From NCBI GenBank assembly GCA_038831915.1, contig JAWBKB010000003.1, positions 665-64,664 on the forward strand: a stretch of DNA of 64,000 nucleotides, in the 5' to 3' direction. Position numbers and translations under genes: made by a program. How positions within the stretch are numbered: the stretch's first letter is position 1; each line of letters opens with the position of its first letter. The DNA is from Candidatus Caldarchaeum sp. (GTDB lineage Archaea > Thermoproteota > Nitrososphaeria_A > Caldarchaeales > Caldarchaeaceae). This document shows positions 8,155-57,317 of this stretch, in pieces. The notes beneath the pieces are model-generated. The model was not told where the DNA came from. It made no database searches and saw nothing but the letters and a program-made list of their open reading frames with translations.

Positions 8155-10513
8155 CATGGCCGTAACCCGTTATTTCGGCGCGCGGGTCAAACGCCGCGAA
8201 GACCCACGGCTCATAACCGGACGCGGTAGATACACGCACAATATCGTTTTGCCGGGAATGGTTTACATCAGCTTCGTCAGAAGCCCTCATGCTCACGCCA
8301 CAATCAAGAAAATCAACACATCAAGGGCGGAAAAATCTTCGGGAGTTCTCCGTGTTTTGACGGGCAGCGACCTCGTTGATAAAGTCGTGTCTCTACCGTG
8401 TGCTTGGCAAATTCCCAACTCTGATTTGAAAGTTCCACGATACATGCCGTTGGCCGTCGACAAAGTCCGTTTTGTCGGCGACCCTGTCGCCGCGGTTGTC
8501 GCCTCATCTTTCGAAGAAGCCGTAGACGCTGCACACCTCGTCGAAGTCGAATACCAGAAACTACCCGCGGTAACCAATCCTGAAGAAGCCGTGAAAGACG
8601 GTGCGCCGCAGCTCTACGACGACGTCCCCAACAACAAGGCTTTCACTTGGAAAGCAGGAGACAGCGTCGACGAAATTTTCGCAAAAGCCGACGTTGTTGT
8701 TTCGCAGCGGCTTCTGAACAGCAGGCTTCAGCCCACACCGCTTGAAACAAGGGCCGTCGTCGCGGACTTTAACGCGACCACGCAGGAGGCCACGGTCTAT
8801 CTCACTACGCAGAACCCGCATGTTCACAGGTTTCTGCTATCAGCCGTAACAGGCATACCCGAACACAAGCTCCGCGTTGTTTCACATGACGTTGGAGGAG
8901 GGTTCGGTGCGAAAATCCACCTCTATCCGCCCGAAATCATCGCCCTACACGTCGCCAGTGAGCTGAAACGGCCCGTTAAATGGGTTGAAACCCGTTCCGA
9001 AAACTTCACAGCAACCATCCATGGCAGAGACCATGTTCAATACGTGGACGTGGCGGCTGACCGTGATGGCCGCGTTCTCGGCCTAAAAGTCAAATCTTAT
9101 GCAAACATGGGTGCTTATCTTTCGACGGCGGCTCCGGGAATTCCGACGATTCTGTTCGGCCCGATGTTGAGCGGGCCCTACCGCATACCCTCGATATACG
9201 TCGAAGTAGTCGGGGCTTTGACCAACACAGCTCCAGTTGATGCTTACAGAGGAGCGGGCAGGCCCGAAGCCACTTACATCCTCGAAAGAATGATAGACAT
9301 TTTGGCGCGCAAGCTCGGCAAAGACCCCGCCGAAATAAGGCTGAAAAACTTCATCCCGAAAGACCAATTCCCCTATTCAGCGAAGCCGATAGGACTTGTC
9401 TATGACAGCGGCGACTACGAGAAAGCGTTTCTCAAAGCCTTGGAGCTTGCACGATATCAGGAATGGCGCAACAAGCAGGCTGAGCTTCGCAAGCAGGGCC
9501 GTTTGATAGGCATTGGGATTTCGAGCTACATCGAGATTTGCGGGCTCGGGCCTTCTTCGGTGGCGAGAGCCACGGGCTTCGGTCTCGGTCTATGGGAAAG
9601 CACAATAATCAGAGTTCATCCCTCTGGCAAGGTTTCCGTCTTCATCGGCGGTCATCCACATGGACAAGGTGAAGAAACCACCTTTGCCCAAATCGTCGCC
9701 GACAGGCTTCAGATTCCAATCGAAGATGTGGAAATTCTGCACGGCGACACAGCGATGGTTCCGTTCGGCATGGGAACCTACGGCAGCAGAACAACACCTG
9801 TCGCAGGCGGCTCATTAGCCATTGCATGCGACCGAGTACTTGAAAAGGCGAGGAAAATCGCCGCACATCTATTCGAAGTAAGCGAAAAAGACGTTGAGTA
9901 TGGTGATGGAAAATTCTTTGTCCGCGGCCTTCCCGAAAAAAGCAAAAGCTTCGCCGAAGTGGCGTACGCAAGCTACGCCGCGGGTGCGAACGAGATTCCT
10001 CAGGGGCTTGAACCCGGGCTTGAAGTGACTGTTTTCTTTGACCCGCCGAACTTCACCTTCCCGTTCGGCACACATGTCTGCGTGACAGAGGTAGACAGAG
10101 AAACGGGAAAAGTGAAGATACTTGACTACGTCGCGGTTGATGACTGCGGCAACCGAATCAACCCCATGATAGTTGACGGACAGATTCACGGCGGAATCGC
10201 TCAGGGCCTTGCACAAGCACTGTATGAAGAGGCTTTCTATAACAGTGAAGGCCAGTTGTTGACAGGTGATTTGACGGAATATTTGGTGCCGTCCGCGCTC
10301 GAAGTGCCATTTATTCGCACGGATGAGACTGTGACACCTTCACCGGTCAATCCTCTCGGCGTGAAAGGCATCGGCGAAGCGGGAACAATCGCTTCGACTC
10401 CAGCAGTTGTCAACTCTGTTCTCGACGCCCTTGCACATCTCGGCGTGATACACATCGACATGCCTCTCAAACCTGAGAAAATCGTCGAGTCCCTCAAGAA
10501 ACCATCGTCATAA
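8155..10513 (+). CDS. Molybdopterin-binding large subunit of xanthine dehydrogenase/aldehyde oxidoreductase/CoxL family
   Basis: About 786 aa from ATG 8155 (MAVTRYFGARVKRREDPRLITGRGRYT). Motifs: GGGFG, AYRGAGRPE, GQGEETTFAQIVAD, AVDDCGNRINP. No adjacent FAD or 2Fe-2S subunit genes. Confidence 0.85.
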
Positions 10514-10565
10514 ATTCGAAGAAAACGCTTAATTGATGGGATAAAAGTTCATCCAGCGAAGACGA

Positions 10566-10994
10566 ATGTCGGTTCCACGTGGCAAGCTTATCGGAATGCA
10601 GGTCTACAGCCCCGACGGCTCTATTGTCGGAATTGTTCAAGACATCGAGCTTCCCATCGGTGAAGGCGAAATTTCATTACAAGTTATGTCGAAGTACAAC
10701 ATGGTTGAACGGGTTCCCTGGAGCATGGTCGCCGCCGCAGGCGATATCATCATCCTTAAGGAGAAAATCGCTTTGAAGCAGCCTGAAATTCCCCAGCCGC
10801 AGCCATATGCTCCACCAACAGCCGCCGCACCCGTCCAGCCTCAGCAACAGCGGCCAGGCTTCGTGACAAGCATAACATCGAAGCTGCCAATCGGCCGTAA
10901 GGAGAAAAACCCCTGCCCGACATGCGGCAAAGAACTCACATGGATAGAGCAGTATCAGCGATGGTACTGCTACAACTGCGGCAAATACGTGTAA
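10566..10994 (+). CDS. PRC-barrel domain protein with Pro/Gln-rich linker and C-terminal zinc ribbon
   Basis: 142 aa. N-terminal PRC-barrel-like region, then CPTCG...CYNCG. Confidence 0.5.
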   Translation: MSVPRGKLIGMQVYSPDGSIVGIVQDIELPIGEGEISLQVMSKYNMVERVPWSMVAAAGDIIILKEKIALKQPEIPQPQPYAPPTAAAPVQPQQQRPGFVTSITSKLPIGRKEKNPCPTCGKELTWIEQYQRWYCYNCGKYV

Positions 10995-11057
10995 TCTCCG
11001 GTTTTCCGACTTCTAAACCCTTAAAGCACCGCATCAAGTTTTCTTGATTGTCTAATC

Positions 11058-12608
11058 ATGCTGGTTACAGAGAAGACAAAAACGTTCGAGACAGTTATTC
11101 TCGCTGTTGTTGTTTTAGCCGTCTCGGCCTTGTTTCTTTTTCCTCCGGCGCTGGTGAATGAAGCTCCGTTCTGGGATGATAAAGCATACATCAACAACGC
11201 TTTAATCGCGAGCGGACGACTCAGTCCTTCAGATGCTCGAGGGCCCTACGCAGAGGAAAGGCCGCCGCTTTTCTGGTGGTTTCTCACAGGTCTTTATGCA
11301 TTGAACCTCCCGGCGGAAACAGCTCGAATTGTTTCACCTCTTCTCACAACGTTCGGCGTCGTAGCCATGTTTCTGCTCGTCGCTAAAGTGTTCGACAGCT
11401 TGCTCGCAGGATTTATAGCCGCGTTAACAACCACCGTCCTTAACTACTTTGTTCTCACCACTTCATACATTTTGACCGACGCGTCTGGGTCTGTTATCGC
11501 ATTCGTCGCGTTGCTGAGCTTCAGTCTCGGGCTACGCTACGGGCCTTTTCTCTGGGTCGCCGGCGGGCTGACAGGGGTATCTATTTTGGCGAGAGACCAA
11601 AACCTGTTGCTTCTTCCAGTTTTTCTGCTTTCGTTCGCATGGATTGCGCGGATGTCTAAGGTGGTGAAAATTGTCTATGTTGGTTTGTTGGCTGTTGTCG
11701 CGTTTTCGGCCGTGTCTATGGGTCAGGAAAACTTTCTCCAAGCGGTGTCGGACACGTTGACGCCGGTTGTCACCGACGTAACATTCATCCCCCTTCTATC
11801 CGTTTTCAGCATATTTTCGGTGATCGCTGTTTACAAAGTCGCCGAGCAGAAAAACCTGCTTTCCAGAAGACCCAGCATCGAGGAACGAGCGTTTGACATG
11901 TTCTTAGCCATCGCAATCTTGCTTTTCATCTTGCTGCCATTCTTCATAGACAACATCCGCCTCGGCCAAGAATTTCAAATCGAAGGCCGGGGGATACTAT
12001 CCAGACCCGTTGCACATTCGTTGATGGTGAAAAACGACATCGCACGAACGGGCCTCGGCACGGTTGAGCGTGTGATTTTCTGGCTCAACTCTATTCCATC
12101 GCTTTTCACGGCTCCTCTACTAATTACGGCTGGCGCGGGCGTTTTCATGGCTTTGAAAAACCGCGTCACGCTTGCGAAGCCTCTCATCCTCTACCTCGTG
12201 TTGACCATAGGCTACATCATGCCGTTCACACACATCGAATATAGGTTTCTCGCACCAGCTGTTCCAGCGGCCGCCGCGTTTACCGGATACGCCGTCGCCC
12301 AAGTTGCGAGAAAAAGCAAGCTGCTCGGAGCTGTTATCGCGGCTGTCGTGCTTGTCTACGCGTTCCCGGAAACATCGTTTTACGGTTTGGTTCCAACTTT
12401 TCAACAGCCAGCCGTGATAACGGGATGGCAAATCTTTCTCAGCTATTCCCGTTATGCTGAAACATGGTTTTCAGACTACGTCGCTTATCTCGACGGAGTG
12501 CTTAGGCCGCCGAACCTTCTGCTACCCATCTCCTATGTCGCGGCGGCGTGGTCAACAATATTGTTCCTCGCAGCCGCTGTCTACATCGGCTTCAAAAATC
12601 CTCTATAA
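11058..12608 (+). CDS. GT-C superfamily glycosyltransferase-like polytopic membrane protein (ArnT/PMT-like)
   Basis: 516 aa, more than 10 TM helices. Early loop with acidic/aromatic motif (FWDDKAY...ERPPLFWW) typical of GT-C. Confidence 0.45.
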   Translation: MLVTEKTKTFETVILAVVVLAVSALFLFPPALVNEAPFWDDKAYINNALIASGRLSPSDARGPYAEERPPLFWWFLTGLYALNLPAETARIVSPLLTTFGVVAMFLLVAKVFDSLLAGFIAALTTTVLNYFVLTTSYILTDASGSVIAFVALLSFSLGLRYGPFLWVAGGLTGVSILARDQNLLLLPVFLLSFAWIARMSKVVKIVYVGLLAVVAFSAVSMGQENFLQAVSDTLTPVVTDVTFIPLLSVFSIFSVIAVYKVAEQKNLLSRRPSIEERAFDMFLAIAILLFILLPFFIDNIRLGQEFQIEGRGILSRPVAHSLMVKNDIARTGLGTVERVIFWLNSIPSLFTAPLLITAGAGVFMALKNRVTLAKPLILYLVLTIGYIMPFTHIEYRFLAPAVPAAAAFTGYAVAQVARKSKLLGAVIAAVVLVYAFPETSFYGLVPTFQQPAVITGWQIFLSYSRYAETWFSDYVAYLDGVLRPPNLLLPISYVAAAWSTILFLAAAVYIGFKNPL

Positions 12609-48187: not shown

Positions 48188-48463
48188 GTGTCCGACGACG
48201 CTGACTACTGGATAATCAAAATTCCGAAGCCGCGTAAAATTCTCCGCATCTTTGCAAAGATAGGTCTTTTCATGGGAAACGTTTTCTCACGTAGCTTCAG
48301 TGTCGACGTTCCCCTTATCTTGATCACTTCGCTTCTCGTAGGGGTTGTTTTGTTCATCATGTTCACCGTGGTTTTCCGCATCCCCGATTTTGTTGCAGCT
48401 GTCTTCACGGCGTTGCTCATACTGCTTTACCTACTTGTTCTGAGACGGGAAATGGGCAGGTGA
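48188..48463 (+). CDS. Small membrane protein (2 TM)
   Basis: 91 aa hydrophobic ORF. Confidence 0.3.
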   Translation: MSDDADYWIIKIPKPRKILRIFAKIGLFMGNVFSRSFSVDVPLILITSLLVGVVLFIMFTVVFRIPDFVAAVFTALLILLYLLVLRREMGR

Positions 48464-48823
48464 TGTCCATCTCCAGAAAAAAGCCGCGTCGGCACGTGGT
48501 TTCATAAAGTTGGCGCCGTAAACCGCGAGAGTAAGAGCCATGACGTAATCGTAGTGCTCGCCGACCGGTGCGCCGTATCTCACATGACCGTCCTTGAATG
48601 TCTGCTCAAAATGCCGTAGCTGCTTTATGAGCGTTGTTTCGCCGGCTGGGATGATGAGTTTCCTTTCGAGAACGGTGCTGCAAAGGTTTTTCACAAGCGA
48701 TTCCTTAACGGCTCTGGTAATGGTGACAGGCATGACCGGGGGCAGCTTTTTCTGAAGGAATTCTGAAAACGGCGCCCCCATCCCCGTGATGTCAACAACT
48801 ACCACCGCAGGCTTGAGAATCAA
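48431..48823 (-). CDS. Putative RNase H-fold (RuvC/terminase-nuclease-like) domain protein
   Basis: VVVVDITGMG (beta1 Asp), PAGE, and C-terminal GEHYDYVMALTLAVYG resembling the H..D..A..A motif of RuvC/terminase nucleases. TTG start. Separated from upstream ORF by a single in-frame TAA. Confidence 0.3.
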   Translation of the reverse strand: MILKPAVVVVDITGMGAPFSEFLQKKLPPVMPVTITRAVKESLVKNLCSTVLERKLIIPAGETTLIKQLRHFEQTFKDGHVRYGAPVGEHYDYVMALTLAVYGANFMKPRADAAFFWRWTSPAHFPSQNK

Positions 48824-48850
48824 GGGAGCCTCTTCGATGGCTTTGAGCTG

Positions 48851-49126
48851 TTATTCAAATTTCGCAAACGCCTTCACACACCCGGTTACAAAGTCCTGCA
48901 GCCTAGTGCCGACTTCAAACAACGCGATGCCCAGCCCACGTTTCAAAGCACCGCTGAAAACTCCAAACGCCGACGACAGTTTCTCCGCTTCACGGATACC
49001 TGCGTCACCCAAAGCATGAAGCTGCGTCTTCGCATAGGCTATCGTCTTGACCAATTGGTTCTCAGCCTTGAGAAGAACTTTGACTGTGAAGTTAGGCTGA
49101 GCCATCGGAAGCTTTGTCCAGAACAT
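48851..49126 (-). CDS. Hypothetical alpha-helical protein, in frame with downstream nuclease-like ORF
   Basis: 91 aa. Stop TAA at 48851..48853 is followed in frame by the 48431..48823 ORF. Confidence 0.3.
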   Translation of the reverse strand: MFWTKLPMAQPNFTVKVLLKAENQLVKTIAYAKTQLHALGDAGIREAEKLSSAFGVFSGALKRGLGIALFEVGTRLQDFVTGCVKAFAKFE

Positions 49127-49165
49127 CGATTATAGCGTTCAGCAAAATTGTAGACGACTGATACA

Positions 49166-49441
49166 TTGTTGACATGTGGAGAAGTCACTTTGACATGCCC
49201 TGTCTGCTGTGGCACAAACCTACTACACGCAAAAATCGAGTCAAACATTCCACCAAACATTCCACAGGCCTTTGAATGCCTCTACTGCCAAACACAGTTC
49301 AGCATTCTCAAGCCTCAGATTTTGGAGTTTGAGGTTTCATGTGAAGAAAGCCGTGAAGAACGGCAGAAGAAAATTAAACGGCGACGCAATTTAGCGGAAA
49401 TTCTCGACGGAATTCTACTCGGATGGCTTCTACGCAAATAA
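49166..49441 (+). CDS. Small Cys-rich (zinc-ribbon-like) protein
   Basis: CPVCCG...CLYCQ pairs, basic C-terminus. Confidence 0.25.
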   Translation: MLTCGEVTLTCPVCCGTNLLHAKIESNIPPNIPQAFECLYCQTQFSILKPQILEFEVSCEESREERQKKIKRRRNLAEILDGILLGWLLRK

Positions 49442-49483
49442 ACCCTTTTCTCCCGCTTATCGTTGCTCGATGGGTTATTTGGC

Positions 49484-50056
49484 TTAGTTTCTCGGTGTGT
49501 AGAGTGTCCATGTTGATGGGTTGAATTCGTTTCGGAAATCACGGATTTCAGCGTATCGGTTCACCACCAGCCAGAGGTTGACGTTGAGCACATGTGTCGC
49601 GTTGTAATCAACGTAAACCACGGCCACTAAGCGGTTGTAGCTGTCCATCACAGCGACGTCGTCAACATCGAGATAAACCGTTTTGCCTTCAATCAACCCA
49701 CGTAACGCGTTCGTCGCCTCCATGTATCCTGGCTGGTTTCTTTCAGGAGTGTTGATGTCCGCCAGCCTTACACGTCCCGACGGAAAGCCGTCGAAAGTAT
49801 CACCGTCAACAACACGAATAACCCTCGCAACCATGTCGGCTGGCTTCCCCCCTATCGACACAAGGCCCGCCGTGGTTGTCCGCGTCGTCGTCAACGTCGT
49901 CGTCTGCACAATGGTCGAGACAATTGTCGCTGTTTGAGTTCTATCAACTGTCAAAGTTCTCGTAACAGTCGGCTGCTGAGATGTTCCCGCGAGCAGATAT
50001 CCCGCGAGGAACGCGACAGCGATTAACGCTACTACAGTCGTGGCTGAAAGCCGCAT
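49484..50056 (-). CDS. Membrane-anchored thermonuclease (staphylococcal nuclease, SNase-like)
   Basis: N-terminal TM, Thr-rich linker, then VIRVVDGDTFDG...VRLADINTPE SNase catalytic motifs. Confidence 0.75.
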   Translation of the reverse strand: MRLSATTVVALIAVAFLAGYLLAGTSQQPTVTRTLTVDRTQTATIVSTIVQTTTLTTTRTTTAGLVSIGGKPADMVARVIRVVDGDTFDGFPSGRVRLADINTPERNQPGYMEATNALRGLIEGKTVYLDVDDVAVMDSYNRLVAVVYVDYNATHVLNVNLWLVVNRYAEIRDFRNEFNPSTWTLYTPRN

Positions 50057-50133
50057 AACAAGTTTGCAATGCTCATTTAAATATACCTAATGCTTAATCG
50101 CCTGTCAGCGTAATATCGTGATGGAGATAGGGG

Positions 50134-50560
50134 TTGAAGAAAAAATTTGTTCTGGGCTCGAGGGGATGGGTGGAAGCTTTTGTCAACGTCCTCAATTCAG
50201 ACCCCGAATACCAGTCTGCCGCAAAGGACTGGGAAGACCCAATAGTCATACTGATGACGGGCCTTCCGCCCAAGCTCCGAGAATATTTTCAAAGTGACGC
50301 AGTTGGATGCTGGTTTGACCTTTACCACGGTCGTTGCAGGTCATTCGAATTAGTGAAAAGCATCGACGAAAAACCCTCGCCAATTGTTCTTTACGGCATG
50401 TATGAAAAAAATCGCGATGGGCAAAGTAAACCCCACCATAGCAGTTGTAACAGGACAGGTCAAGGTCAAAGGAAACATGGCGAAGCTATTATCCAACGCT
50501 GGCGCGTCTTCGGCTTTCGTCAACGCTTTGAAGAAAGTTTCGACGGAGTTTTTGGCGTGA
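50134..50560 (+). pseudogene. SCP2 sterol-carrier domain protein with frameshift at an A7 run (50405..50411)
   Basis: N-terminal half in frame 1 (…VILMTGLPPKL…). C-terminal SCP2 motif MGKVNPTIAVVTGQVKVKGNMAKLL only in the adjacent frame, ending TGA 50558..50560. Confidence 0.55.
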
Positions 50561-50565
50561 ATGAT

Positions 50566-51606
50566 ATGCGGGCTGCGAGGTGGCACGGCTCCCAGGACAT
50601 CCGTGTCGAAGACGTTGACGAGCCTCGGCTACGGGTTGATAGCGATGCTTTGGTCAGGCCTACGGCGGCGTGCATCTGTGGAACCGATATGCATCTCTAC
50701 AAAGGCGACATCACCGCTGTTCCAGGCACCATCATAGGCCATGAATTTGTCGGCGTCGTCGAGAAAGTCGGGCCGTCGGTCAAAAAGTTCCATGAAGGAG
50801 ACCGAGCAATTTCGTCGTGCCGGATAGCTGACGGCGAATGCTGGTTCTGCAGACACGGTTTTTACGCCCAATGTGTCAACATTAACATCTACGGCATGGG
50901 CCCCGTTTACGGCGAAAGCTTGGACGGCTGTTTCGCAGAGCTTGTCCGCGTGCCATACGCCGACACGGTTCTGATTCCCGCTCCACCGAACGTTCCCGAT
51001 GAAAAACTCGTCACAGTCGGTGACAGCCTCGCGACAGGACATCAATCGATGGTTCACGGAGGCATGCGTGAAGGTGAGTTTGTGGTGGTGATAGGCTGCG
51101 GGCCTGTGGGGCTTTACAGCGGCATGTTTGCGAAGATTCTCGGAGCATCCCAGGTCGTTGTCGCCGATGTTTCCGCTGAGAGGCTTGAATATGCAAAACG
51201 GATTGGCTTCGAAACAATCAACGCAGCCGAAGTAGATGTTGCCGAGGAAGTTCGGGCGATGACAGACGGAGTTGGAGCTGATTTCGTCGTCGAAGCGGTG
51301 GGCCGTTCGCAGGAACCTCTCCTCAAAGCCGTCGAAACTGTCCGGAGAAAAGGCACGGTCTCGGTAGTCGGTTTCCATCTTCAGGAATACATCATCCCCT
51401 CGGGAATGCTCTGGCTCACCGAGAAAACACTAGTTTTCTCCATAGGCGACGCCATTAAACACAGCGAAACACTACTCAAATACATCAAGAACAACCGGAT
51501 CGACCCAAGCGTGGTCATCACACATCTGAAAAAACTGGACGAAATTCCGCAGGCGTTTGAAATGTTCGCCAAACAACAAGCCCTCAAAGTAATGATAACA
51601 TTATGA
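50566..51606 (+). CDS. Zinc-dependent alcohol dehydrogenase (MDR family)
   Basis: 347 aa from ATG 50566 (MRAARWHG). CGTDMH, GHEFVG, GCGPVG motifs. Confidence 0.85.
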   Translation: MRAARWHGSQDIRVEDVDEPRLRVDSDALVRPTAACICGTDMHLYKGDITAVPGTIIGHEFVGVVEKVGPSVKKFHEGDRAISSCRIADGECWFCRHGFYAQCVNINIYGMGPVYGESLDGCFAELVRVPYADTVLIPAPPNVPDEKLVTVGDSLATGHQSMVHGGMREGEFVVVIGCGPVGLYSGMFAKILGASQVVVADVSAERLEYAKRIGFETINAAEVDVAEEVRAMTDGVGADFVVEAVGRSQEPLLKAVETVRRKGTVSVVGFHLQEYIIPSGMLWLTEKTLVFSIGDAIKHSETLLKYIKNNRIDPSVVITHLKKLDEIPQAFEMFAKQQALKVMITL

Positions 51607-52698
51607 TGACACAGCCACCGCGGTCAGAGGGTCTGCTAAAAAATATCCATCAGCTCTCTTCTCCAAAACATTCAACTTAACCAATCCTTTGAGAATTCGT
51701 GATAGATGTGCGTTTGAAACGGGGACTTTCCGCCAAGCTTCGACGACCTGTTTTATTTCATTCCATTTGCTGCTGCCTTTCGCCACAGCTCTGACCACGT
51801 CTCTGTAAAGCGGTGACCGTGTGAAGATTTTCTCCAACTCATTCCGCGTTATCTGCACGGCTTCTTCAACAACTTTATCCAGCACTTCACCGTCGGCCCT
51901 CCACCTCGAAACGGCTTCGTACCCGTAGTAGGTGAGCCATCCAACAACCCCGTCAAGAACATCAACCACTTTCTCCAAAACAGCTTTGTCAGGCCTCATC
52001 CCGTATTCTTGAAAACCTTGACGCAGAAAATCCAGCGAAGCAGTTTGGTCAAATTTTTTCAAAACTATTTCCTCCCGGTAACGTCCGTATAATGGGCTTG
52101 AGGAATCGTATGCACCGATGAAATCCATCAGAAGCCCTACCTCTGAACCCGTCAACACAAATTTCACATGTCTAAGGTTGTCGTATGCGTAGGCGAGGAA
52201 GCTACGGAAATCTATGCGTCCTTTGCCGCCTCTCACAAACCTGAGCAACTGGGCTTCGTCGAAAGCCACCACGAAGTTCCTGTTCTCCTTTTTCATCGCG
52301 TTGTCGATTGCGCGGAAAAGCGACGAAAGCGAAACACCCGACCGTCCCCAGTCAAGCTCAACTTTCACACCGGCGACTTCGACACCACGCACTTTCGCGA
52401 TAAAATCTTTCAGCTTCCGCCATCTCGAAACGACGCGGCTCAGCTCCTCCGAAAGAAGCCTATAAAACGCAACCTTTGAAAAACCTTCCTCGGCAAATAT
52501 TCTCAAATCAAGGTAGATGTAGGGCCCGCGGTATTCGTTCAACGCTACTTTTAGCAGCGAGGTTTTTCCCAGCCTACGCATCCCCAACACCAGTATTAGA
52601 GGAGGCCCCGAAACAAACGCGGAAAGAAGCTTCTCCAGCTCCTCATCCCGTCCAAACAGGTTTTCTCGGCTGTCTTTGGGCCGTGGGTCGAATAGCAA
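51601..52698 (-). CDS. Archaeal ATPase family protein (AAA+ with C-terminal winged-helix, PF01637-like)
   Basis: 365 aa, TTG start. FGRDEELEKL, Walker A GMRRLGKTSLL, Walker B VVAFDEAQ. Confidence 0.7.
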   Translation of the reverse strand: MLFDPRPKDSRENLFGRDEELEKLLSAFVSGPPLILVLGMRRLGKTSLLKVALNEYRGPYIYLDLRIFAEEGFSKVAFYRLLSEELSRVVSRWRKLKDFIAKVRGVEVAGVKVELDWGRSGVSLSSLFRAIDNAMKKENRNFVVAFDEAQLLRFVRGGKGRIDFRSFLAYAYDNLRHVKFVLTGSEVGLLMDFIGAYDSSSPLYGRYREEIVLKKFDQTASLDFLRQGFQEYGMRPDKAVLEKVVDVLDGVVGWLTYYGYEAVSRWRADGEVLDKVVEEAVQITRNELEKIFTRSPLYRDVVRAVAKGSSKWNEIKQVVEAWRKVPVSNAHLSRILKGLVKLNVLEKRADGYFLADPLTAVAVSS

Positions 52699-52772
52699 GT
52701 ATCACCCCTGATACCTAAGTATCACCCCCGATACTTTAACGTTTTCACCACGCGTTACTTTAACGTTTTCAT
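52697..52772. repeat. Two tandem copies of palindromic AAGTATCACCCCYGATAC plus two copies of ACTTTAACGTTTTCA abutting the ATPase start codon
   Basis: Direct repeats at 52697/52717 (inverted GTATC...GATAC cores) and 52733/52758. Candidate operator/promoter elements. Confidence 0.6.
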
Positions 52773-53019
52773 ACTGCTTCTTCACAAGAGGTTTCAACGT
52801 GCCGCGGGATTCGAGAAAATCAACCAAAACACTCACCACCACGTCGGCTCTGCTGCGGAAACCACGCATCGCCGCCTCCTCCTCGCGGAGAAACACGTCG
52901 ATAGCCTCAGCCAAAGCCGCGAGAATCTTCACCGTGCAGTAATTTCTCGCGGCCGATGAATTATCGATGAATCTGCGATGATTCATCTGTGAATCATTTT
53001 TCTCCATCGTTTTTATCAC
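52702..53019 (-). CDS. Hypothetical protein (105 aa); C-terminus encoded by the repeat region
   Basis: ORF only. ENVKV repeated because it reads through the DNA repeats, so may be shorter or non-coding at the 3' end. Confidence 0.25.
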   Translation of the reverse strand: MIKTMEKNDSQMNHRRFIDNSSAARNYCTVKILAALAEAIDVFLREEEAAMRGFRSRADVVVSVLVDFLESRGTLKPLVKKQYENVKVTRGENVKVSGVILRYQG

Positions 53020-53118
53020 TCTCCGCGGCTTTCAGCTGTGTGATGCCCGGATTTATCCTTGGGAGGTGGCTGAAAGTTCAGCGGCTTTACCGTTGGTCGG
53101 ACAGGGAGGTGAGCGAAA

Positions 53119-53277
53119 ATGCCGCCGCTGAGAAGTTTCAGGAATAAATCACGCCGCCTGTCTCTCCGCCTTGCTGCTGAAATGTATGAATGGCTGGTCG
53201 CTGAAGCCGTTCGAGCAGGCCTGCCTCTTTCGATGTTTGTGCGACGTCTCATACGTGAGACGATGCGGAGGCGGTGA
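53119..53277 (+). CDS. Ribbon-helix-helix (CopG/Arc-like) small DNA-binding protein, 52 aa, not in ORF track
   Basis: MPPLRSFRNKSRRLSLRLAAEMYEWLVAEAVRAGLPLSMFVRRLIRETMRRR: beta-strand RLSLRL followed by two helices, as in RHH antitoxins. Confidence 0.55.
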   Translation: MPPLRSFRNKSRRLSLRLAAEMYEWLVAEAVRAGLPLSMFVRRLIRETMRRR

Positions 53278-53280
53278 AAA

Positions 53281-53562
53281 ATGCCCAAAATGTTTTCCAA
53301 ACAGCCGGCGGTGAAATCAATCTTCGCAGTCGGTGAAATTCTCTACAGGCTCGCGGAGGAAAAACAGTTGTCCATGATGAGCGTGGAGAAGGGTGAGTTG
53401 CGGCATCTGCTCAACACTGGGAAGAAACGCGGGAAATCAATCTTCACTATAGCGATTCAGCGTTTCACGGTTTCAACCGTGGTCGCGACGTCGCGGTGGA
53501 TGATTGAATTGGTGGACCGTGAAAAACCGTTGATTGTTTTCAAGGTGAGGTGGGATGAATGA
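53281..53562 (+). CDS. Hypothetical 93-aa protein between RHH and ParB-like genes
   Basis: Starts 3 nt after the RHH stop. 8-nt overlap with the next gene. No family recognised. Confidence 0.35.
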   Translation: MPKMFSKQPAVKSIFAVGEILYRLAEEKQLSMMSVEKGELRHLLNTGKKRGKSIFTIAIQRFTVSTVVATSRWMIELVDREKPLIVFKVRWDE

Positions 53563-54100
53563 AGTTGTTTGGCTCGACGTAATGTGTTTGCGGAAAGGTT
53601 TCTACAACCCGCGAATCGTTCAAGACCTCGACAGAGCGCAGATACTTCTCGAAAGCGTGAAAAAACATGGAATCAAGCAGCCGCTTCTCGTCGTTCCATC
53701 AGCAGACAGCCTGTATGAAGTGTTGGACGGCAGCCGGAGGCTCGAAGCTGCAAAACAAGCCGGAATACAGAAAATCCCATGCATCGTTATTGAAACATCT
53801 CAGATATCGCAGACATCTCTCGCCATCCATTTCAGCCAAGAAGACCTCACCGAACAGGAGCTTATCATCTATGTCTAAAGACTTGTCGCCGAAGAAATTT
53901 TCCCAACGGTCGAGGATTTGTGCCGTTTTCTCGGTGTGTCGAAGTCATGGTTCCACACTTTGAAGAAGGCCGCGAAACTCAGACCGTCAAGCGAAGAGAT
54001 TTCAACAACTTCTCTCGCCTTAATCAAAAAAGCAAACATCGACGAGGAAAAAAAGAAACAAATGCTTGAAGCGTATCCGTTGGCGCGGCATCTTCTCTAG
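53555..54100 (+). CDS. ParB/Srx N-terminal (ParB-like nuclease) domain protein with C-terminal HTH, interrupted by in-frame TAA at 53876..53878
   Basis: QPLLVV...YEVLDGSRRLEAAKQAG...PCIV (ParBc motifs). Downstream in the same frame, EDLCRFLGVSKSWFHTLKKAAKL (HTH) follows after one TAA. Confidence 0.5.
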
Positions 54101-54394
54101 AACGAGTTGGAGGAAATTGTGGATAAACAGCCTGAAAACCCTGTTGAAATCATCGAGAAACATTTTTTGATGACGCCACGTAAAGCCGACGACTACACGG
54201 TTACGGCGTCCGGCACGTATGACTACTTGCTGGGGAAGAATGCTGGCGTTGTGGAGTTTGTGGCCCTCCGCTGCGTGGAAACGCTTTGGCGAATACAGTT
54301 TCCCGCAGCCGATTTACCCGTGGTTAAGATGATGATTCAAAAGCAGTATCGGGATACGTTTTTTACCAGGGTTTATGGGTTAAGCAGGCGTAGA

Positions 54395-55807
54395 ATGGCG
54401 CAGACGGTGTTTGAGAAAATCTGGGATTCTCACGTGCTGGCTGAACGAGAGGACGGCATGACACTTCTCTACATCGACCGGCATTTAACACATGAAGTAA
54501 CATCCCCTCTCGCGTTCGAAAACCTGCGACATTCGGGCCGAACCGTTCGAAGACCAGACCTAACTTTCGCCGTCATGGACCACAACGTTCCCACCACGGA
54601 TAGAACCGAGCCGGTGAAAGACCTCATGTCAGCCGCCCAGATGCAGGCTTTGCAGCGAAACGCCAAACAGTATGGTATTGTTTTGTTCGACTATTTCAGC
54701 CCGTTCCAAGGTATCGTCCACGTCATCGGCCCAGAGCTCGGCCTCACGATTCCCGGCATCACTTTGGTCTGCGGCGACAGCCACACCTCGACTCACGGTG
54801 CTTTCGGCGCTCTTGCATTCGGAATCGGAACAAGCGAAGGAGAGCATGTCTTCGCAACCCAAACACTCTGGCTTAAGAAACCTAAGCAGATGAACATCGA
54901 GCTGAAAGGAAGCCTGCCAACCAACGTCTCGGCGAAAGACATCATCCTATACATCATCCGCACACTCGGAACCGGCGGCTGCATCGGCCACGTCGTCGAA
55001 TTCACAGGGCCTCTCACAAAGCAGCTCAGCGTCGAAGAAAGGATGACTCTCACCAACATGAGCATCGAAGGCGGCGCGAGGACAGCCATCATAGAGCCTG
55101 ACCAGAAGGTGTATGACTACATCCGCGACGCACCCTACAGCCCCAAAGGCCGTGAATGGGACGAAGCCAAGCATTACTGGGAGACGCTCAAAACAGACCC
55201 CAACGCCCGGTACGACGCGTTTCACAGCTTCGACGTCTCAAGCCTCGAGCCACAGGTTACGTGGGGCACAAATCCCGGCATGACAGTCGGCGTAACCGAA
55301 ACCGTTCCGTCACCGGATGACTTTGACGACCCAACTGAGAAAAAATCTGTGCAAAGGGCCCTCGAATACATGGGCCTCAAGCCGGGTATGAATATCTCCG
55401 ACATCAAAGTCGACACCGTTTTCATCGGTTCATGCACAAACGCAAGGCTGAGCGACCTGATCGACGTAGCTCGGATGGTGAAAGGCCGTAGGAAAGCTGA
55501 CGGTGTAAGGGTTTTGGTCGTTCCCGGCTCCCAGCTCACTAAACGGAGAGCGGAGAGAATGGGGCTTCACAGAATATTCATCGAAGCAGGGTTTGAATGG
55601 CGGAACAGCGGATGCAGCATGTGCATAGCGATGAACGAAGACCGGCTCAGACCAGGTGAAAGATGTCTCTCAACGAGCAACCGCAACTTCGAAAACAGAC
55701 AAGGCATCGGAGGACGCACACATCTCGCAAGCCCACTAACAGCCGCCGCAACAGCACTCACAGGAAAAATAACAGACCCAAGAACATTCGAACTACAATC
55801 ACTCTAA
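54395..55807 (+). CDS. 3-isopropylmalate dehydratase/homoaconitase large subunit (aconitase family)
   Basis: 470 aa from ATG 54395 (MAQTVFEKIWDSHV). DRHLTHEVTSP, GDSHT, GSCTN, Cys ligands CSMC. No adjacent small subunit. Confidence 0.85.
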   Translation: MAQTVFEKIWDSHVLAEREDGMTLLYIDRHLTHEVTSPLAFENLRHSGRTVRRPDLTFAVMDHNVPTTDRTEPVKDLMSAAQMQALQRNAKQYGIVLFDYFSPFQGIVHVIGPELGLTIPGITLVCGDSHTSTHGAFGALAFGIGTSEGEHVFATQTLWLKKPKQMNIELKGSLPTNVSAKDIILYIIRTLGTGGCIGHVVEFTGPLTKQLSVEERMTLTNMSIEGGARTAIIEPDQKVYDYIRDAPYSPKGREWDEAKHYWETLKTDPNARYDAFHSFDVSSLEPQVTWGTNPGMTVGVTETVPSPDDFDDPTEKKSVQRALEYMGLKPGMNISDIKVDTVFIGSCTNARLSDLIDVARMVKGRRKADGVRVLVVPGSQLTKRRAERMGLHRIFIEAGFEWRNSGCSMCIAMNEDRLRPGERCLSTSNRNFENRQGIGGRTHLASPLTAAATALTGKITDPRTFELQSL

Positions 55808-55811
55808 CGCT

Positions 55812-56192
55812 TTAAAGTTCCTCACTCCTCAAAACCCGCACATACTTCTTAGCGGTTTCAAACAGTTTCGAGTCATCGGTCACCAGGTCCAACCCGTTCT
55901 GAACAGCTGCTTGAAGATAAACGGCGTCGCAGAAAGTTATGTTTTCGCTTATCGCCAGCGACAATGCATCGCTAAAATTTACAGGAGCTGTTTTCATCAA
56001 CGCGATTAATGCCTGAAGTTTTTCAAAAACGGTTAGACAATCTTCATGTCTCATGCTGTCTCGTCTCTTCCATACGTAGTTTCCAACCTCAAACTTGACA
56101 AGCTCGACAGAGTAATGGCCGACAAGCTCCGCCGCCTTACCCAGCCAGACACAGTTTATCAACGCCGAAGCATCGAAAAGCCTATGTTTCAT
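55812..56192 (-). CDS. vapC: PIN-domain ribonuclease (VapC toxin)
   Basis: 126 aa. FDASALI...LVTDD acidic PIN residues. Overlaps upstream antitoxin gene by 11 nt. Confidence 0.75.
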   Translation of the reverse strand: MKHRLFDASALINCVWLGKAAELVGHYSVELVKFEVGNYVWKRRDSMRHEDCLTVFEKLQALIALMKTAPVNFSDALSLAISENITFCDAVYLQAAVQNGLDLVTDDSKLFETAKKYVRVLRSEEL

Positions 56193-56406
56193 CTCTGATT
56201 TCCCTGATCAGCCGCACGGTTTCCTCGGGGCTTGTCAGAAACTTCTTCACCTCGTCGAGCTCTTTCAAAAGAGTTCTTACTTTTCTCTTCTTCACCTCTT
56301 CCTCTAAAGCTCTTCTGATAACCTGCGATGGTTTTATCTTCAATCGTTTCAACTCTTGCTTCAGCTCGAGAGGTATTTTCGCGGAAACTGTTGCGTATTT
56401 CCTCAC
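56182..56406 (-). CDS. vapB: VapB-like antitoxin (small DNA-binding protein)
   Basis: 74 aa. TVSAKIPLELKQELKRLKIKPSQVIRRALEEE. Operon with PIN gene. Confidence 0.6.
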   Translation of the reverse strand: MRKYATVSAKIPLELKQELKRLKIKPSQVIRRALEEEVKKRKVRTLLKELDEVKKFLTSPEETVRLIREIRDET

Positions 56407-56629: not shown

Positions 56630-56953
56630 TCATATTTTTTGTGTTTTTGCTTTTTTCATGTAGTGCCGTGCTTCTTGTGGTGTTTGGATGTGGATTTCGA
56701 ACGGCGGCCGCACGCCGGCTCGTAGAAGAGCTGCACGCATCGCGGCGTGGTCTTTGTTCGTCACTATGAGAATGTCGATGTCGCTGACAAGCGAATGTCT
56801 TCCCTCCGCAACCGAGCCAAAGAGATAGATTTCGGCGTTTTCGTCCACCTCTGTTGCGGCATGTTTAATTTCCCGCAAATACTTTTCCAAATTTGCGAAG
56901 ATTTCTCTCCTCCTCATCGCTTCTTCGATAAGCAGTTTTTCAGACATTTGCAA
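56630..56953 (-). CDS. Minimal nucleotidyltransferase (MNT) antitoxin-like protein
   Basis: LFGSVAEGRHSLVSDIDILIV (GS...DxD NTase motif). Confidence 0.75.
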   Translation of the reverse strand: MQMSEKLLIEEAMRRREIFANLEKYLREIKHAATEVDENAEIYLFGSVAEGRHSLVSDIDILIVTNKDHAAMRAALLRAGVRPPFEIHIQTPQEARHYMKKAKTQKI

Positions 56954-57317
56954 TCAACTCCTTCACGGATTCCATTACCTTCTTAACCTCTTCTCCTCTG
57001 TACAGCCTCGGCACATATCTCGCAGTTATGTAAGCGTCTTCGAGCAAGCCCAGCTCGGTCAAATGCTTCTCCAACAACCTGTCAACCTCTTTGTTCTGTG
57101 AAACTTTTCCCAACATTTCCAGTAGAGCTGTTACGCTGTGTGACCGCGGATAGTCCACGCCGTTTTGCAGCAGCCTCGCCTTTAGGAAAAGCTGGAGGGC
57201 CTGCTCCAAGCTGAACATGGCCAGGTCATAGTAACCGACTTCATACTGATGCTCCGCGGTCTCGAGGAAACGTCGAGACCTCGTCAAAAGCATCTCTATT
57301 TCCTCTTTCCGGGACAT
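56940..57317 (-). CDS. HEPN domain protein (toxin-like partner of MNT)
   Basis: 125 aa, R-x4-H motif (YPRSHS). 14-nt overlap with the MNT gene. Confidence 0.75.
   Translation of the reverse strand: MSRKEEIEMLLTRSRRFLETAEHQYEVGYYDLAMFSLEQALQLFLKARLLQNGVDYPRSHSVTALLEMLGKVSQNKEVDRLLEKHLTELGLLEDAYITARYVPRLYRGEEVKKVMESVKELIANV

What the first reader, a model, noticed from the sequence alone, without database searches (positions are those of the whole stretch)
53119..54100. RHH / unknown 93-aa / ParB-nuclease-domain+HTH three-gene module adjacent to an archaeal ATPase with operator-like repeats
A 52-aa ribbon-helix-helix gene (absent from the ORF track) is followed 3 nt later by a 93-aa ORF of unknown family. 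That ORF overlaps by 8 nt a ParB/Srx-domain gene (DGSRRLEAAKQAG) whose C-terminal HTH follows an in-frame TAA. There is no ParA ATPase. ParB-nuclease-domain proteins coupled to small DNA-binding proteins occur in plasmid partition (AspA-ParB) and also in poorly characterised toxin/defence modules. The middle protein has no obvious homology and could be the novel component.
Basis: partly seen in the sequence, partly recalled or inferred. Interest (0 to 1): 0.6.

Follow-up and report, generated by a model that had tools for sequence, protein, structure and literature searches.

The report
Decayed provirus end: RHH, p90, ParB
The three genes are real and conserved, but here they are the decaying end-piece of a tailed-virus-like element in a hot-spring archaeon (Candidatus Caldarchaeum), with the ParB gene already broken by stop codons; the small middle protein is a previously undescribed partner of this 'orphan' ParB.

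Summary
There is an RHH gene (53119-53277), a 93-aa gene (53281-53562, called p90 here) and a ParB_N gene (from 53555), with a 3-nt gap, an 8-nt overlap and an in-frame TAA.

The TAA is a nonsense mutation. Intact homologues are single 267-269-aa proteins with a ParB N-domain, an HTH and a new C-terminal domain. The window copy carries TAA (Glu in sister genomes), a second in-frame TAG and a lost stop codon, so it is a pseudogene.

In about 30 related Caldarchaeales loci the trio is the terminal module of a ~19.5-kb head-tail virus-like cluster. That cluster has HK97 capsid, portal, protease, tail tube, tape measure and TerL genes and lies between leuC and an aldo-keto reductase gene. The window keeps only fragments of it (TerL, tape measure, p168). 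The neighbouring archaeal ATPase and its repeats are a lineage-specific insertion.

p90 is an orphan family with a winged-helix-like model, always paired with this ParB. No ParA or ParA-binding motif is present. The module is under purifying selection, even in one clade that lost the structural genes.

Most likely it is a ParA-independent DNA-binding and regulatory module of the element. An addiction role is the main rival. Interest is moderate for the family and low for this relic copy.

The parts
53119..53277 (+). RHH gene (52 aa), first gene of the trio. The ORF is intact and is preceded by the SD-like GGGAGGTGA.
   Evidence: NikA-like/CopG_antitoxin, E about 5e-4, sub-threshold. Orthologues at the same position are 40-42% identical. 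It has one nonsynonymous difference from the sister genome.
53281..53562 (+). p90 (93 aa): orphan small protein, winged-helix-like, a dedicated partner of this ParB family. The ORF is intact here.
   Evidence: No Pfam, PHROG or NCBIfam family and only a marginal sub-threshold PADLOC BrxB hit (E 0.009). Only about 9 representative clusters in 1.84 billion proteins and 20 clusters in the 5.8-billion set. AF2 model pLDDT 83.7 with topology H-b-H-H-b-b-b. No structural neighbour below E 0.1. dN/dS 0.03-0.12 in intact loci.
53555..53878 (+). ParB pseudogene, part 1: ParB N-terminal (CTPase-fold) domain, ended by a strain-specific TAA that replaces a conserved Glu.
   Evidence: PF02195 E 4.8e-16. 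Sister assemblies read GTTGAA where the window has GTCTAA. Intact homologues have Glu there.
53879..54100 (+). ParB pseudogene, part 2: HTH segment, ended by an in-frame TAG that the two sister assemblies share.
   Evidence: Weak HTH_17 hit. It aligns to residues 109-181 of the 267-aa homologues, which have Gln/Arg/Ala at the TAG position.
54101..54394 (+). ParB pseudogene, part 3: remnant of the family-specific C-terminal domain. The original stop codon is lost (TAT), so the frame runs into the leuC ATG at 54395.
   Evidence: tblastn aligns the window up to 54343 with intact ParBs. Gene callers on sister genomes fuse this piece to a 562-aa 'aconitase'.
52756..53007 (-). N-terminal 86 codons of p168, the divergently transcribed fourth gene of the module. 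It is truncated by a deletion. The ORF as listed is 52702-53019.
   Evidence: 57-73% identity to residues 1-86 of the 167-183-aa orthologues. The sister genome has a stop at codon 11. The Calditenuaceae orthologue hits RHH_1.
53008..53118 (.). Divergent intergenic region between p168 and the RHH gene. It has a TATA-like box (GGATTTATCC, about 53050-53060) and a duplicated SD-like block GGGAGGTG (53061 and 53104).
   Evidence: The block ..GCCTGCATATATCCATGGGAGRTGG.. is conserved among Caldarchaeum-group loci.
52967..52997 (.). Overlapping inverted repeats ATGAATC..GATTCAT / ATGATTCATCTGTGAATCAT at the 5' end of p168. They are a candidate operator; binding has not been shown.
   Evidence: Related TGAnTCA-N4-6-TGAnTCA repeats sit at the same place in other loci.
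51601..52698 (-). Archaeal ATPase (PF01637). It is a lineage-specific gene occupying the deletion and is not part of the module.
   Evidence: It is absent from all other related loci. Weak PADLOC PDC-S27 hit.
52697..52771 (.). Two 18-nt and two 19-nt tandem repeats directly upstream of the ATPase start, at the junction where p168 homology ends (52756).
   Evidence: They are unique in the window.
48434..48928 (-). Relic of the large terminase gene (C-terminal about 165 residues) of the same element.
   Evidence: tblastn with TerL of L024, L027 and L033: 36-49% identity, E down to 1e-37.
48854..49120 (-). Relic of the tape-measure gene (N-terminal about 90 residues).
   Evidence: 44-54% identity to residues 1-94 of the 761-774-aa TMP.
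49484..50056 (-). SNase-like nuclease. In the intact Ca. C. subterraneum element this is a cargo gene.
   Evidence: 61% identity to L024 11758-12321, which lies between the neck and TMP genes. PF00565.

Best explanation
What it is (shown). The window comes from a Candidatus Caldarchaeum genome. The trio plus the truncated minus-strand ORF p168 is the terminal module of a ~19.5-kb tailed-virus-like element.

The full gene order in intact copies is:
- leuC (flank)
- ParB <- p90 <- RHH
- p168 -> ABC-ATPase/GNAT
- p169 <- p140 <- portal
- p83 -> protease -> HK97 capsid -> adaptor -> .. -> subtilase -> tail tube -> neck -> tape measure -> tail proteins -> TerL
- aldo-keto reductase (flank)

In this window the element is a wreck. 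Only TerL and tape-measure fragments, the nuclease cargo gene, the first 86 codons of p168, and the RHH and p90 genes survive. ParB is a pseudogene with two nonsense codons and a lost stop. SCP2/ADH and an archaeal ATPase occupy the gaps.

How the intact module most likely works (inferred).
- The 267-aa protein is an orphan ParB. It has an NTP-binding ParB N-domain, an HTH and a family-specific C-terminal domain.
- With its obligatory small partner p90 (winged-helix-like), it would bind element DNA without any ParA.
- It would then act as a clamp or nucleoprotein complex that controls expression or maintenance of the element.
- This would resemble KorB with KorA on plasmid RK2, BisD on ICEclc, or ParB with AspA on pNOB8.
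- The RHH protein, and p168 on the other strand, would autoregulate the two divergent operons from the shared promoter region.
- The module persists under selection after loss of the particle genes in one clade, so its function is at least partly autonomous. Immunity or repressor-like control, or addiction, are the candidates.

In this window the ParB function is lost. The RHH and p90 genes are probably drifting.
For: - Identity of the source: near-identical NCBI and Logan contigs, 99.5%.
- Pseudogene: the read-through frame aligns end to end with 267-269-aa proteins. TAA replaces GAA of the sister assemblies, and TAG is shared with them.
- Element context: 15 genome loci and 12 metagenome loci show the same gene order. 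Hallmark genes were identified by Pfam and PHROGs.
- Relics in the window.
- Deletion series: L012, L018/L021 and L023.
- Selection in intact loci: dN/dS is 0.22 for RHH, 0.12 for p90 and 0.11 for ParB between L010 and L011.
- Selection without structural genes: dN/dS is 0.07, 0, 0.03 and 0.095 for p168, RHH, p90 and ParB in the clade lacking structural genes.
- ParB type: the best solved relatives are ParB/Spo0J/Noc CTPase domains (E 1e-15). The Spo0J alignment runs through the HTH. The TIGR00180 score is 57.9 against a cut-off of 58.45.
- No ParA in the module, and no ParA-binding motif in 14 orthologues.
- p90-ParB pairing also occurs in a third, unrelated ORFan-rich context without the RHH gene.
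- Literature: orphan ParB-CTPase proteins are common on mobile elements, including in archaea without ParA (PMC12704722). A ParB-like clamp is known as a regulator of a mobile element (PMC12409273). Caldarchaeales prophage regions listing a 'ParB family transcriptional regulator' have been reported (PMC10547907).
Against: - No DNA-binding site, nucleotide binding or protein-protein contact has been shown.
- Several nucleotide-contacting residues of canonical ParB are replaced: GERR becomes GSRR, and ENLQR becomes (I)HFSQ. CTP-dependent clamping is therefore uncertain.
- The p90 fold has no significant structural neighbour, so 'DNA-binding winged helix' rests on topology alone.
- Retention of the module after loss of the particle genes fits an addiction module equally well.
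- Relaxed selection in the window lineage is only a trend: 9 nonsynonymous to 2 synonymous against 12 to 12 in the flanks, Fisher p = 0.08.
Confidence: 0.6

Rival explanations
1. Addiction (toxin-antitoxin-like) or defence module. The RHH protein would be the antitoxin and autorepressor. p90 or the ParB-like protein would be the toxic effector. This would explain why the module outlives the rest of the element.
For: - The module is kept intact and under strong purifying selection in L018/L021 after clean loss of all head-tail genes.
- It is also retained in L012 and the window while structural genes decayed.
- The RHH protein has sub-threshold CopG_antitoxin hits.
- In the window the putative effector (ParB) is inactivated while the RHH gene is intact, the order of decay expected for TA loci.
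Against: - The ParB domain is closest to the DNA-clamp (Spo0J/Noc) type with an HTH, not to nuclease-type ParB/Srx proteins.
- No significant PADLOC, Pfam or NCBIfam toxin or defence family matches any of the three proteins; the only defence-library hits are weak (ParB N-domain to MTase_II, p90 to BrxB at E 0.009).
- In the third context (L037-L039) p90-ParB occurs without an adjacent RHH gene.
- In L023 the RHH and p90 genes were lost while a ParB fragment remains.
Confidence: 0.2
2. Packaging-site recognition. The RHH, p90 and ParB-HTH proteins would act as, or together with, the small terminase that marks element DNA for the TerL/portal machinery. No recognisable TerS gene is present.
For: - No TerS family was detected. 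Only unannotated 75-83-aa ORFs precede TerL.
- ParB-like genes are common in head-and-packaging neighbourhoods of phages; many PHROG 'ParB-like' families hit this protein.
Against: - The module sits about 18 kb from TerL at the opposite end and is transcribed away from it.
- It is maintained under selection in genomes that have lost TerL, portal and capsid.
Confidence: 0.1
3. Ordinary partition locus of the AspA-ParB(-ParA) type, serving an episomal form of the element.
For: - A small winged-helix-like protein lies directly upstream of a ParB-domain protein, as in pNOB8 (own knowledge of Schumacher et al. 2015, cited in PMC12704722).
- A ParA-family gene lies 2.5 kb upstream of the module in L018/L021.
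Against: - That ParA-like gene is a host flank gene. In 'filled' loci it lies beyond TerL, about 20 kb from ParB.
- There is none in the Caldarchaeum-group loci or in the window.
- No ParA-binding motif is present.
- p90 has no PadR hit.
- All copies are chromosomal, with no att repeats and no replication genes.
Confidence: 0.06
4. The ParB gene is functional here through stop-codon read-through or recoding.
For: Both interruptions are in frame and no frameshift is present.
Against: - Two different stop codons (TAA and TAG) interrupt the frame.
- The TAA is a GAA in 99.5%-identical sister genomes.
- The normal stop codon is also lost.
- There is a 3-residue deletion next to the TAG.
- The partner gene p168 is truncated.
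- Other genes in the window end normally.
Confidence: 0.02

Closest known systems
Orphan ParB-CTPase-fold proteins on mobile genetic elements (survey in PMC12704722)
   Same: It has a PF02195 N-domain followed by an HTH. It is encoded outside any parAB operon, has no ParA-binding motif, and sits on a prophage-like element in an archaeon.
   Different: - It has a family-specific C-terminal domain with no Pfam or PDB match.
- Its nucleotide-pocket residues are altered (GSRR, HFSQ).
- It has an obligatory 90-aa partner gene that has not been described.
KorB-KorA (plasmid RK2) and BisD (ICEclc, PMC12409273): ParB-like clamps acting as transcription regulators of a mobile element
   Same: A ParA-independent ParB-like protein with an HTH is encoded with small DNA-binding proteins in the regulatory region of a mobile element. 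This is the working model proposed here.
   Different: p90 and the RHH protein show no sequence similarity to KorA or BisC. The host is an archaeon and the element is virus-like. No binding sites or CTP dependence have been shown.
AspA-ParB-ParA partition system of Sulfolobus plasmid pNOB8
   Same: An archaeal system in which a small winged-helix-type protein is encoded immediately upstream of a ParB-domain protein.
   Different: There is no ParA. p90 is not PadR-like. ParB here is 267 aa, against about 470 aa in pNOB8, with a different C-terminal domain. The element is chromosomal and virus-like, not a plasmid.
Caldarchaeales 'Mu-like prophage regions' (PMC10547907; Hua et al. 2018 as cited there)
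   Same: This is apparently the same kind of region. It has capsid, portal, prohead protease, terminase and tail genes together with a 'ParB family transcriptional regulator', a CopG-like protein, a subtilisin, a staphylococcal-nuclease homologue and an aldo-keto reductase.
   Different: Those reports list gene annotations only. The end-module, the p90 family, its selection pattern and the decay series were not described. The window holds only a relic.
RHH-antitoxin type II toxin-antitoxin modules
   Same: A small RHH gene leads a tightly overlapping operon. The module is retained when the surrounding element decays.
   Different: There are three genes rather than two, no recognisable toxin fold, and RHH hits below family thresholds.

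Membership tests
ParB/Srx superfamily (Pfam PF02195 ParB_N) | Significant match to the ParB N-terminal domain model above the gathering score | tested here: met
   59.0 bits against a cut-off of 26.3, E 4.8e-16 for window 53555-53875. Intact homologues score the same.
Canonical ParABS partition system | Adjacent ParA (Walker-type) ATPase gene in the same operon | tested here: not met
   No ParA-like gene lies in the module in any of about 30 loci. The only ParA-family gene is a host flank gene in Calditenuaceae loci. None was found in the window by tblastn.
Canonical ParABS partition system | N-terminal ParA-binding motif [LFI]G[KR]G[LFI] | tested here: not met
   Absent from 14 orthologues and from the window read-through. 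The proteins start directly at the ParB_N domain.
Canonical ParABS partition system | Full-length match to TIGR00180 (parB_part) above cut-off | tested here: not met
   57.9 bits against a cut-off of 58.45. This is borderline.
Canonical ParABS partition system | Conserved CTP-binding and hydrolysis residues (GERRxR, ENLQR) and CTP-dependent clamping | tested here: inconclusive
   GxRR is kept (DG[SGW]RR). The Glu of GERR and the E-N...R of box III are replaced. Nucleotide binding cannot be tested here.
Orphan ParB-CTPase proteins on mobile elements (PMC12704722) | ParB-CTPase fold, encoded outside parAB, on a plasmid or prophage-like element | tested here: met
AspA-ParB-ParA (pNOB8 type) | Upstream small protein is a PadR-family winged helix (AspA) | tested here: not met
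   p90 has no PadR or other significant Pfam hit at E <= 1. Foldseek gives no significant match.
AspA-ParB-ParA (pNOB8 type) | ParB C-terminal histone-like DNA-binding domain and a ParA partner | tested here: inconclusive
   ParA is absent (above). The C-terminal domain has no sequence match to any solved structure.
Type II toxin-antitoxin (RHH antitoxin) | Recognisable toxin family next to an antitoxin family hit above threshold | tested here: not met
   RHH hits CopG_antitoxin at 20.9-23.3 bits against a cut-off of 28. There is no toxin family for p90 or ParB.
Type II toxin-antitoxin (RHH antitoxin) | Toxicity neutralised by the cognate antitoxin | not testable with these tools
   This needs expression experiments.
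Known anti-phage defence systems (PADLOC 2.0) | Match of module proteins to a defence-system model | tested here: not met
   Only a weak MTase_II hit, which reflects the shared ParB_N domain, and a marginal BrxB hit at E 0.009.
Tailed-virus (Caudoviricetes-type) provirus or derived element | HK97-fold capsid, portal, maturation protease, large terminase and tail genes in one cluster | tested here: met
   Met in intact relatives: PF05065, PF04860, Peptidase_S78, Terminase_6N/6C, Phage_tube_2 and PhageMin_Tail. In the window only TerL and TMP fragments remain.
Tailed-virus (Caudoviricetes-type) provirus or derived element | Integrase and att repeats, or a replication module, as in an autonomous temperate virus | tested here: not met
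   No integrase or replication domain appears among the ORFs scanned from ParB to TerL. There is no direct repeat of 10 nt or more at the two borders of L024. Several small ORFs remain unannotated.

The most novel reading that the evidence does not exclude
The four-gene module p168 / RHH / p90 / orphan ParB would be an autonomous, selectable control unit of a head-tail particle cluster. That cluster lacks integrase and replication genes and is kept at fixed chromosomal sites across several Caldarchaeales genera. This would make it a domesticated, gene-transfer-agent-like element of archaea. p90 would be a new kind of partner that loads or locks a ParA-independent ParB clamp, possibly one that does not use CTP. 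Such a clamp could silence or activate the ~18-kb structural operons from a distance, for example through the conserved 23-bp palindrome at the portal promoter.
Probability: 0.2. Interest if true: 0.65.

Novelty: new variant of a known kind. Interest (0 to 1): 0.35.

Why it matters
Orphan ParB-CTPase proteins on mobile elements were only recently recognised as a large, mostly uncharacterised class. Very few have a known partner or role (KorB, BisD, Noc).

This family offers a compact archaeal example with three useful properties:
- It has an invariant, previously undescribed 90-aa partner.
- There is a natural series of genomes in which the module is complete, stands alone, or decays.
- There is clear selection on the module independent of the virus particle genes.

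That makes the question 'what do ParA-less ParBs do on mobile elements?' testable in archaea. It also flags a head-tail cluster in Caldarchaeales that may be domesticated.

The copy in this window is a non-functional relic. It matters mainly for annotation. The ParB fragments and the 562-aa 'aconitase' gene call in sister genomes are artefacts of pseudogenisation.

Tried and rejected
- AF2 of p90 with only 3 sequences failed (pLDDT 42). It was repeated with 21 sequences.
- A profile search of p90 against PDB sequences gave only a chance hit (SSO1398, E 1.1).
- Three repetitive proteins (P0013, P0020, P0021) in the exhaustive p90 search are tandem-repeat artefacts around an 'ATSRW' motif, not relatives.
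- The ParB C-terminal domain profile against PDB gave no hit.
- IMG/VR holds no relative of the ParB. No cultured phage or archaeal virus has p90, and none has a close ParB relative.
- Rfam finds no RNA family in the region.
- A search for shared operators between the p168|RHH and p83|portal intergenic regions found no common 8-mers of note.
- Perfect palindromes inside the module are not conserved between loci, apart from the TGAnTCA repeats and TATA-like boxes.
- No att-like repeats were found at the element borders.
- dS is saturated for most inter-species pairs, so only close pairs were used for dN/dS.
- Strict vertical inheritance was considered and weakened. Between L012 and L014, leuC dS is 0.14 but ParB dS is 1.1.
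- Stop-codon read-through or recoding was rejected (see rivals).
- The first dN/dS script timed out.
Full report
**1. Observation**

Reading the region and listing ORFs confirms three tightly packed plus-strand ORFs.
- A 52-aa ORF at 53119-53277.
- A 93-aa ORF at 53281-53562, which begins 3 nt later.
- A 107-aa ORF at 53555-53878, which overlaps the previous one by 8 nt.

Pfam results:
- The third ORF hits ParB_N at E 4.8e-16.
- The first ORF gets only sub-threshold RHH-type hits (NikA-like, CopG_antitoxin, E about 5e-4).
- The 93-aa protein gets nothing.

A 73-codon HTH-containing piece follows, then a second in-frame stop (TAG, 54098-54100). Another 96 sense codons then run without any stop into the leuC start at 54395.

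**2. The ParB gene is a pseudogene**

A search with the read-through translation found seven relatives. The best are single proteins of 267-269 aa that align over 94% of the query.
- At the TAA position every intact homologue has Glu.
- At the TAG position they have Gln, Arg or Ala.
- Their stop codon falls where the window has TAT.

Two near-identical public assemblies (NCBI GCA_038886635.1, Candidatus Caldarchaeum sp., and a Logan contig) are 99.5% identical over 9.4 kb.
- They read GTTGAA where the window reads GTCTAA.
- They share the TAG and the lost stop.

The lineage first lost the C-terminal domain, and this strain then acquired a second nonsense codon. Gene callers on the sister genomes accordingly report a 181-aa ParB and a 562-aa 'aconitase' that includes the orphaned ParB C-terminal domain.

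**3. Genomic context elsewhere**

I looked up the contigs that encode the homologues. I then scanned one genome per species (15 loci) and JGI metagenomes (12 loci). All hits are from Caldarchaeales (Caldarchaeum, Pelearchaeum, Calditenuaceae, HR01).

The trio always sits at one end of the same cluster. Reading outward from the trio, the cluster holds:
- A divergently transcribed p168 gene. The Calditenuaceae orthologue hits RHH_1.
- A 482-aa ABC-ATPase/GNAT fusion.
- Two small genes.
- Portal (PF04860).
- S78-type protease.
- HK97 capsid (PF05065).
- Head-tail adaptor.
- A subtilase.
- Tail tube (Phage_tube_2).
- Neck protein.
- Tape measure (PhageMin_Tail).
- Tail proteins.
- A large terminase (Terminase_6N/6C).

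In Ca. C. subterraneum (L011/L024) the whole unit is about 19.5 kb and lies between leuC and an aldo-keto reductase gene. I found no integrase or replication gene and no border repeats. Published work on Caldarchaeales genomes lists such 'Mu-like prophage regions', including a 'ParB family transcriptional regulator' (PMC10547907).

**4. The window holds a wreck of this element**

- The minus-strand ORF 52702-53019 is the first 86 codons of p168.
- Upstream lie a TerL C-terminal fragment (48434-48928) and a tape-measure N-terminal fragment (48854-49120).
- A small conserved ORF (49181-49438) and the SNase-like cargo gene (49484-50056) also survive.
- All of this sits next to the same aldo-keto reductase flank.
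- SCP2/ADH genes and the archaeal ATPase (PF01637) fill the gaps.
- The ATPase occurs in no other related locus.
- The two pairs of tandem repeats at 52697-52771 lie directly upstream of the ATPase start, at the point where p168 homology ends. They are unique in the window.
- The ATPase and its repeats are therefore neighbours by accident of deletion and insertion.

Other genomes show other stages of decay.
- L012 kept ABC-GNAT to ParB but lost the head genes.
- The L018/L021 clade kept only p168-RHH-p90-ParB.
- L023 kept only a ParB fragment.

**5. Is the module functional where it is intact?**

- For the unsaturated pair L010/L011, dN/dS is 0.22 for RHH, 0.12 for p90 and 0.11 for ParB, against 0.05 for leuC.
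- In the L018/L021 clade, which has no structural genes, dN/dS is 0.07 for p168, 0 for RHH, 0.03 for p90 and 0.095 for ParB. This is as low as the flanking host genes. The module therefore has a function of its own.
- In the window lineage the trend is the opposite. Between the window and L002 the module has 11 substitutions, 9 of them nonsynonymous or stop changes. The flanking genes show 12 nonsynonymous to 12 synonymous. The differences are not significant (p about 0.08-0.09).
- L002 also carries a stop at codon 11 of the p168 remnant.

**6. The 93-aa protein (p90)**

- An exhaustive HMMER search of 1.84 billion representatives found only about nine true relatives, all 80-103 aa.
- A profile search of the 5.8-billion set found 20 clusters, all unnamed.
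- With 21 sequences AlphaFold gives a confident model (pLDDT 83.7, pTM 0.74). Its topology is helix, strand, helix, helix and a three-stranded sheet, which is winged-helix-like.
- Foldseek finds no significant neighbour in PDB or BFVD. The weak top hits are winged-helix domains.
- p90 is directly upstream of this ParB family in every locus that is not degraded.
- This includes a third, ORFan-rich context (L037-L039) where a 214-217-aa gene replaces the RHH gene.
- p90-ParB is therefore the invariant core pair.

**7. The ParB protein**

- The closest solved relatives are the CTPase N-domains of chromosomal ParB, Spo0J and Noc (E 1e-15). The Spo0J alignment continues through the HTH.
- The protein scores just under the TIGR00180 cut-off.
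- GxRR is conserved, but the Glu of GERR and the Glu, Asn and Arg of the ENLQR box are replaced.
- It has no N-terminal ParA-binding motif.
- Its C-terminal 90 residues match nothing.
- No ParA gene belongs to the module. The one ParA-family gene seen is a host flank gene in Calditenuaceae.
- This fits the recently defined class of orphan ParB-CTPase proteins on mobile elements. [quoted passage not shown]

**8. Mechanism**

Shown:
- The gene order and the divergent promoter region.
- The tight translational coupling of the three genes.
- The co-occurrence of p90 and ParB.
- The selection pattern.

Inferred:
- RHH, and p168 on the other strand, are operator-binding autoregulators.
- p90 plus ParB form a ParA-independent DNA-bound complex that controls expression or maintenance of the element, by analogy with KorB/KorA, BisD (PMC12409273) and AspA/ParB.

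Candidate sites:
- The TGAnTCA inverted repeats at the 5' end of p168 (window 52967-52997).
- In intact elements, a conserved 23-bp palindrome between the p83 and portal genes.

The main rival is an addiction or defence module. It explains retention after element decay and the order of gene loss here. However, it has no support from known toxin or defence families beyond two weak PADLOC hits. A role in packaging-site recognition cannot be excluded, because no TerS is recognisable. It is hard to reconcile with selection in genomes that lack the packaging machinery.

**9. Novelty and verdict**

The window copy is a relic, and the prophage-like region is already on record at the annotation level. 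New here:
- The definition of the end-module.
- The p90 family and its strict pairing with a divergent orphan ParB.
- The evidence that the module is selected on its own.

I rate it a new variant of a known kind (orphan ParB modules of mobile elements). Interest is moderate for the family and low for this instance.

Whether the whole cluster is a domesticated, GTA-like element is open.
- For: no integrase, replication genes or att repeats. The sites are fixed, and capsid and portal are conserved as strongly as leuC.
- Against: repeated decay, and a module far more diverged than leuC between two close hosts (L012/L014).

Noticed in passing
L011 1-10800 / L024 400-19530 (intact relatives); relics in window 48188-54394: A ~19.5-kb head-tail gene cluster (capsid, portal, protease, tube, TMP, TerL) occurs in several Caldarchaeales genera. 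It has no detectable integrase, replication genes or att repeats and sits at fixed sites (leuC/AKR, or C14-C17/ParA-like flank). Capsid and portal are under strong purifying selection (dN/dS 0.04-0.06). It could be a domesticated, GTA-like element rather than an active provirus.
   Followed up: partly
L011 5458-5480; L010 5467-5489; L006 2439-2461; L014 5274-5296: A conserved, near-perfect 23-bp palindrome CTTAATTCTCTGAGAGAATTAAG lies in the short divergent intergenic region between p83 (head operon) and the portal gene. There is one copy per element. It may be an operator or a pair of back-to-back TATA boxes.
   Followed up: partly
L011 7445-8893 (-) with p168 at 8921-9424 (-): A conserved 482-aa fusion of an ABC-type ATPase with a GNAT acetyltransferase domain lies downstream of the RHH-containing p168. 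It has phage relatives (phrog_11143, E 1e-30). The arrangement recalls RHH-antitoxin/GNAT-toxin pairs, but with an added ATPase. In Calditenuaceae it has moved into the head operon.
   Followed up: no
window 50407: The window has an 8-bp deletion relative to the 99.5%-identical sister assembly. It fuses the SCP2-like and zinc-ADH genes into one 490-aa ORF (50134-51606). The sister genomes have two genes of 144 and 346 aa. This is either a frameshift mutation or an assembly error.
   Followed up: partly
window 54107-55807: The longest ORF for leuC has a 96-codon N-terminal extension that is really the orphaned C-terminal domain of the ParB pseudogene. Sister genomes are annotated with a 562-aa 'aconitase' for this reason. 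The true leuC start is most likely the ATG at 54395.
   Followed up: yes
window 56630-57317 (-) and 55812-56406 (-): Directly downstream of leuC there is a HEPN / minimal nucleotidyltransferase pair (PF05168, PF01909). There is also a second small pair: 126 aa with no Pfam hit, plus 74 aa with a weak CcdA-like hit. These are typical toxin-antitoxin-type pairs and are syntenic in L012 and L014.
   Followed up: partly
L037 1535-2664; L038 4144-4558; L039 1225-1651: A divergent p90-ParB pair occurs on small ORFan-rich metagenome contigs. A 214-217-aa unknown protein lies upstream and a metallophosphoesterase downstream. This may be a different, uncharacterised archaeal mobile element or virus.
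   Followed up: partly
L012 vs L014 (leuC 10851-12260; ParB 10001-10798): Two genomes with nearly identical leuC (dS 0.14) carry module genes that are far more diverged (ParB dS 1.1, p90 dS 0.7). This implies replacement or horizontal exchange of the element between close relatives at the same site.
   Followed up: no
window 53061-53086 and 53104-53129; L004 and L006 equivalents: The SD-plus-start block upstream of the RHH gene is duplicated. In L004 and L006 the first copy starts a conserved 17-codon upstream ORF (M..FSKLTD..GR). In L012-L015 it seems to start a longer (~75-aa) RHH protein. In the window its start codon is GTT, so it is lost.
   Followed up: no
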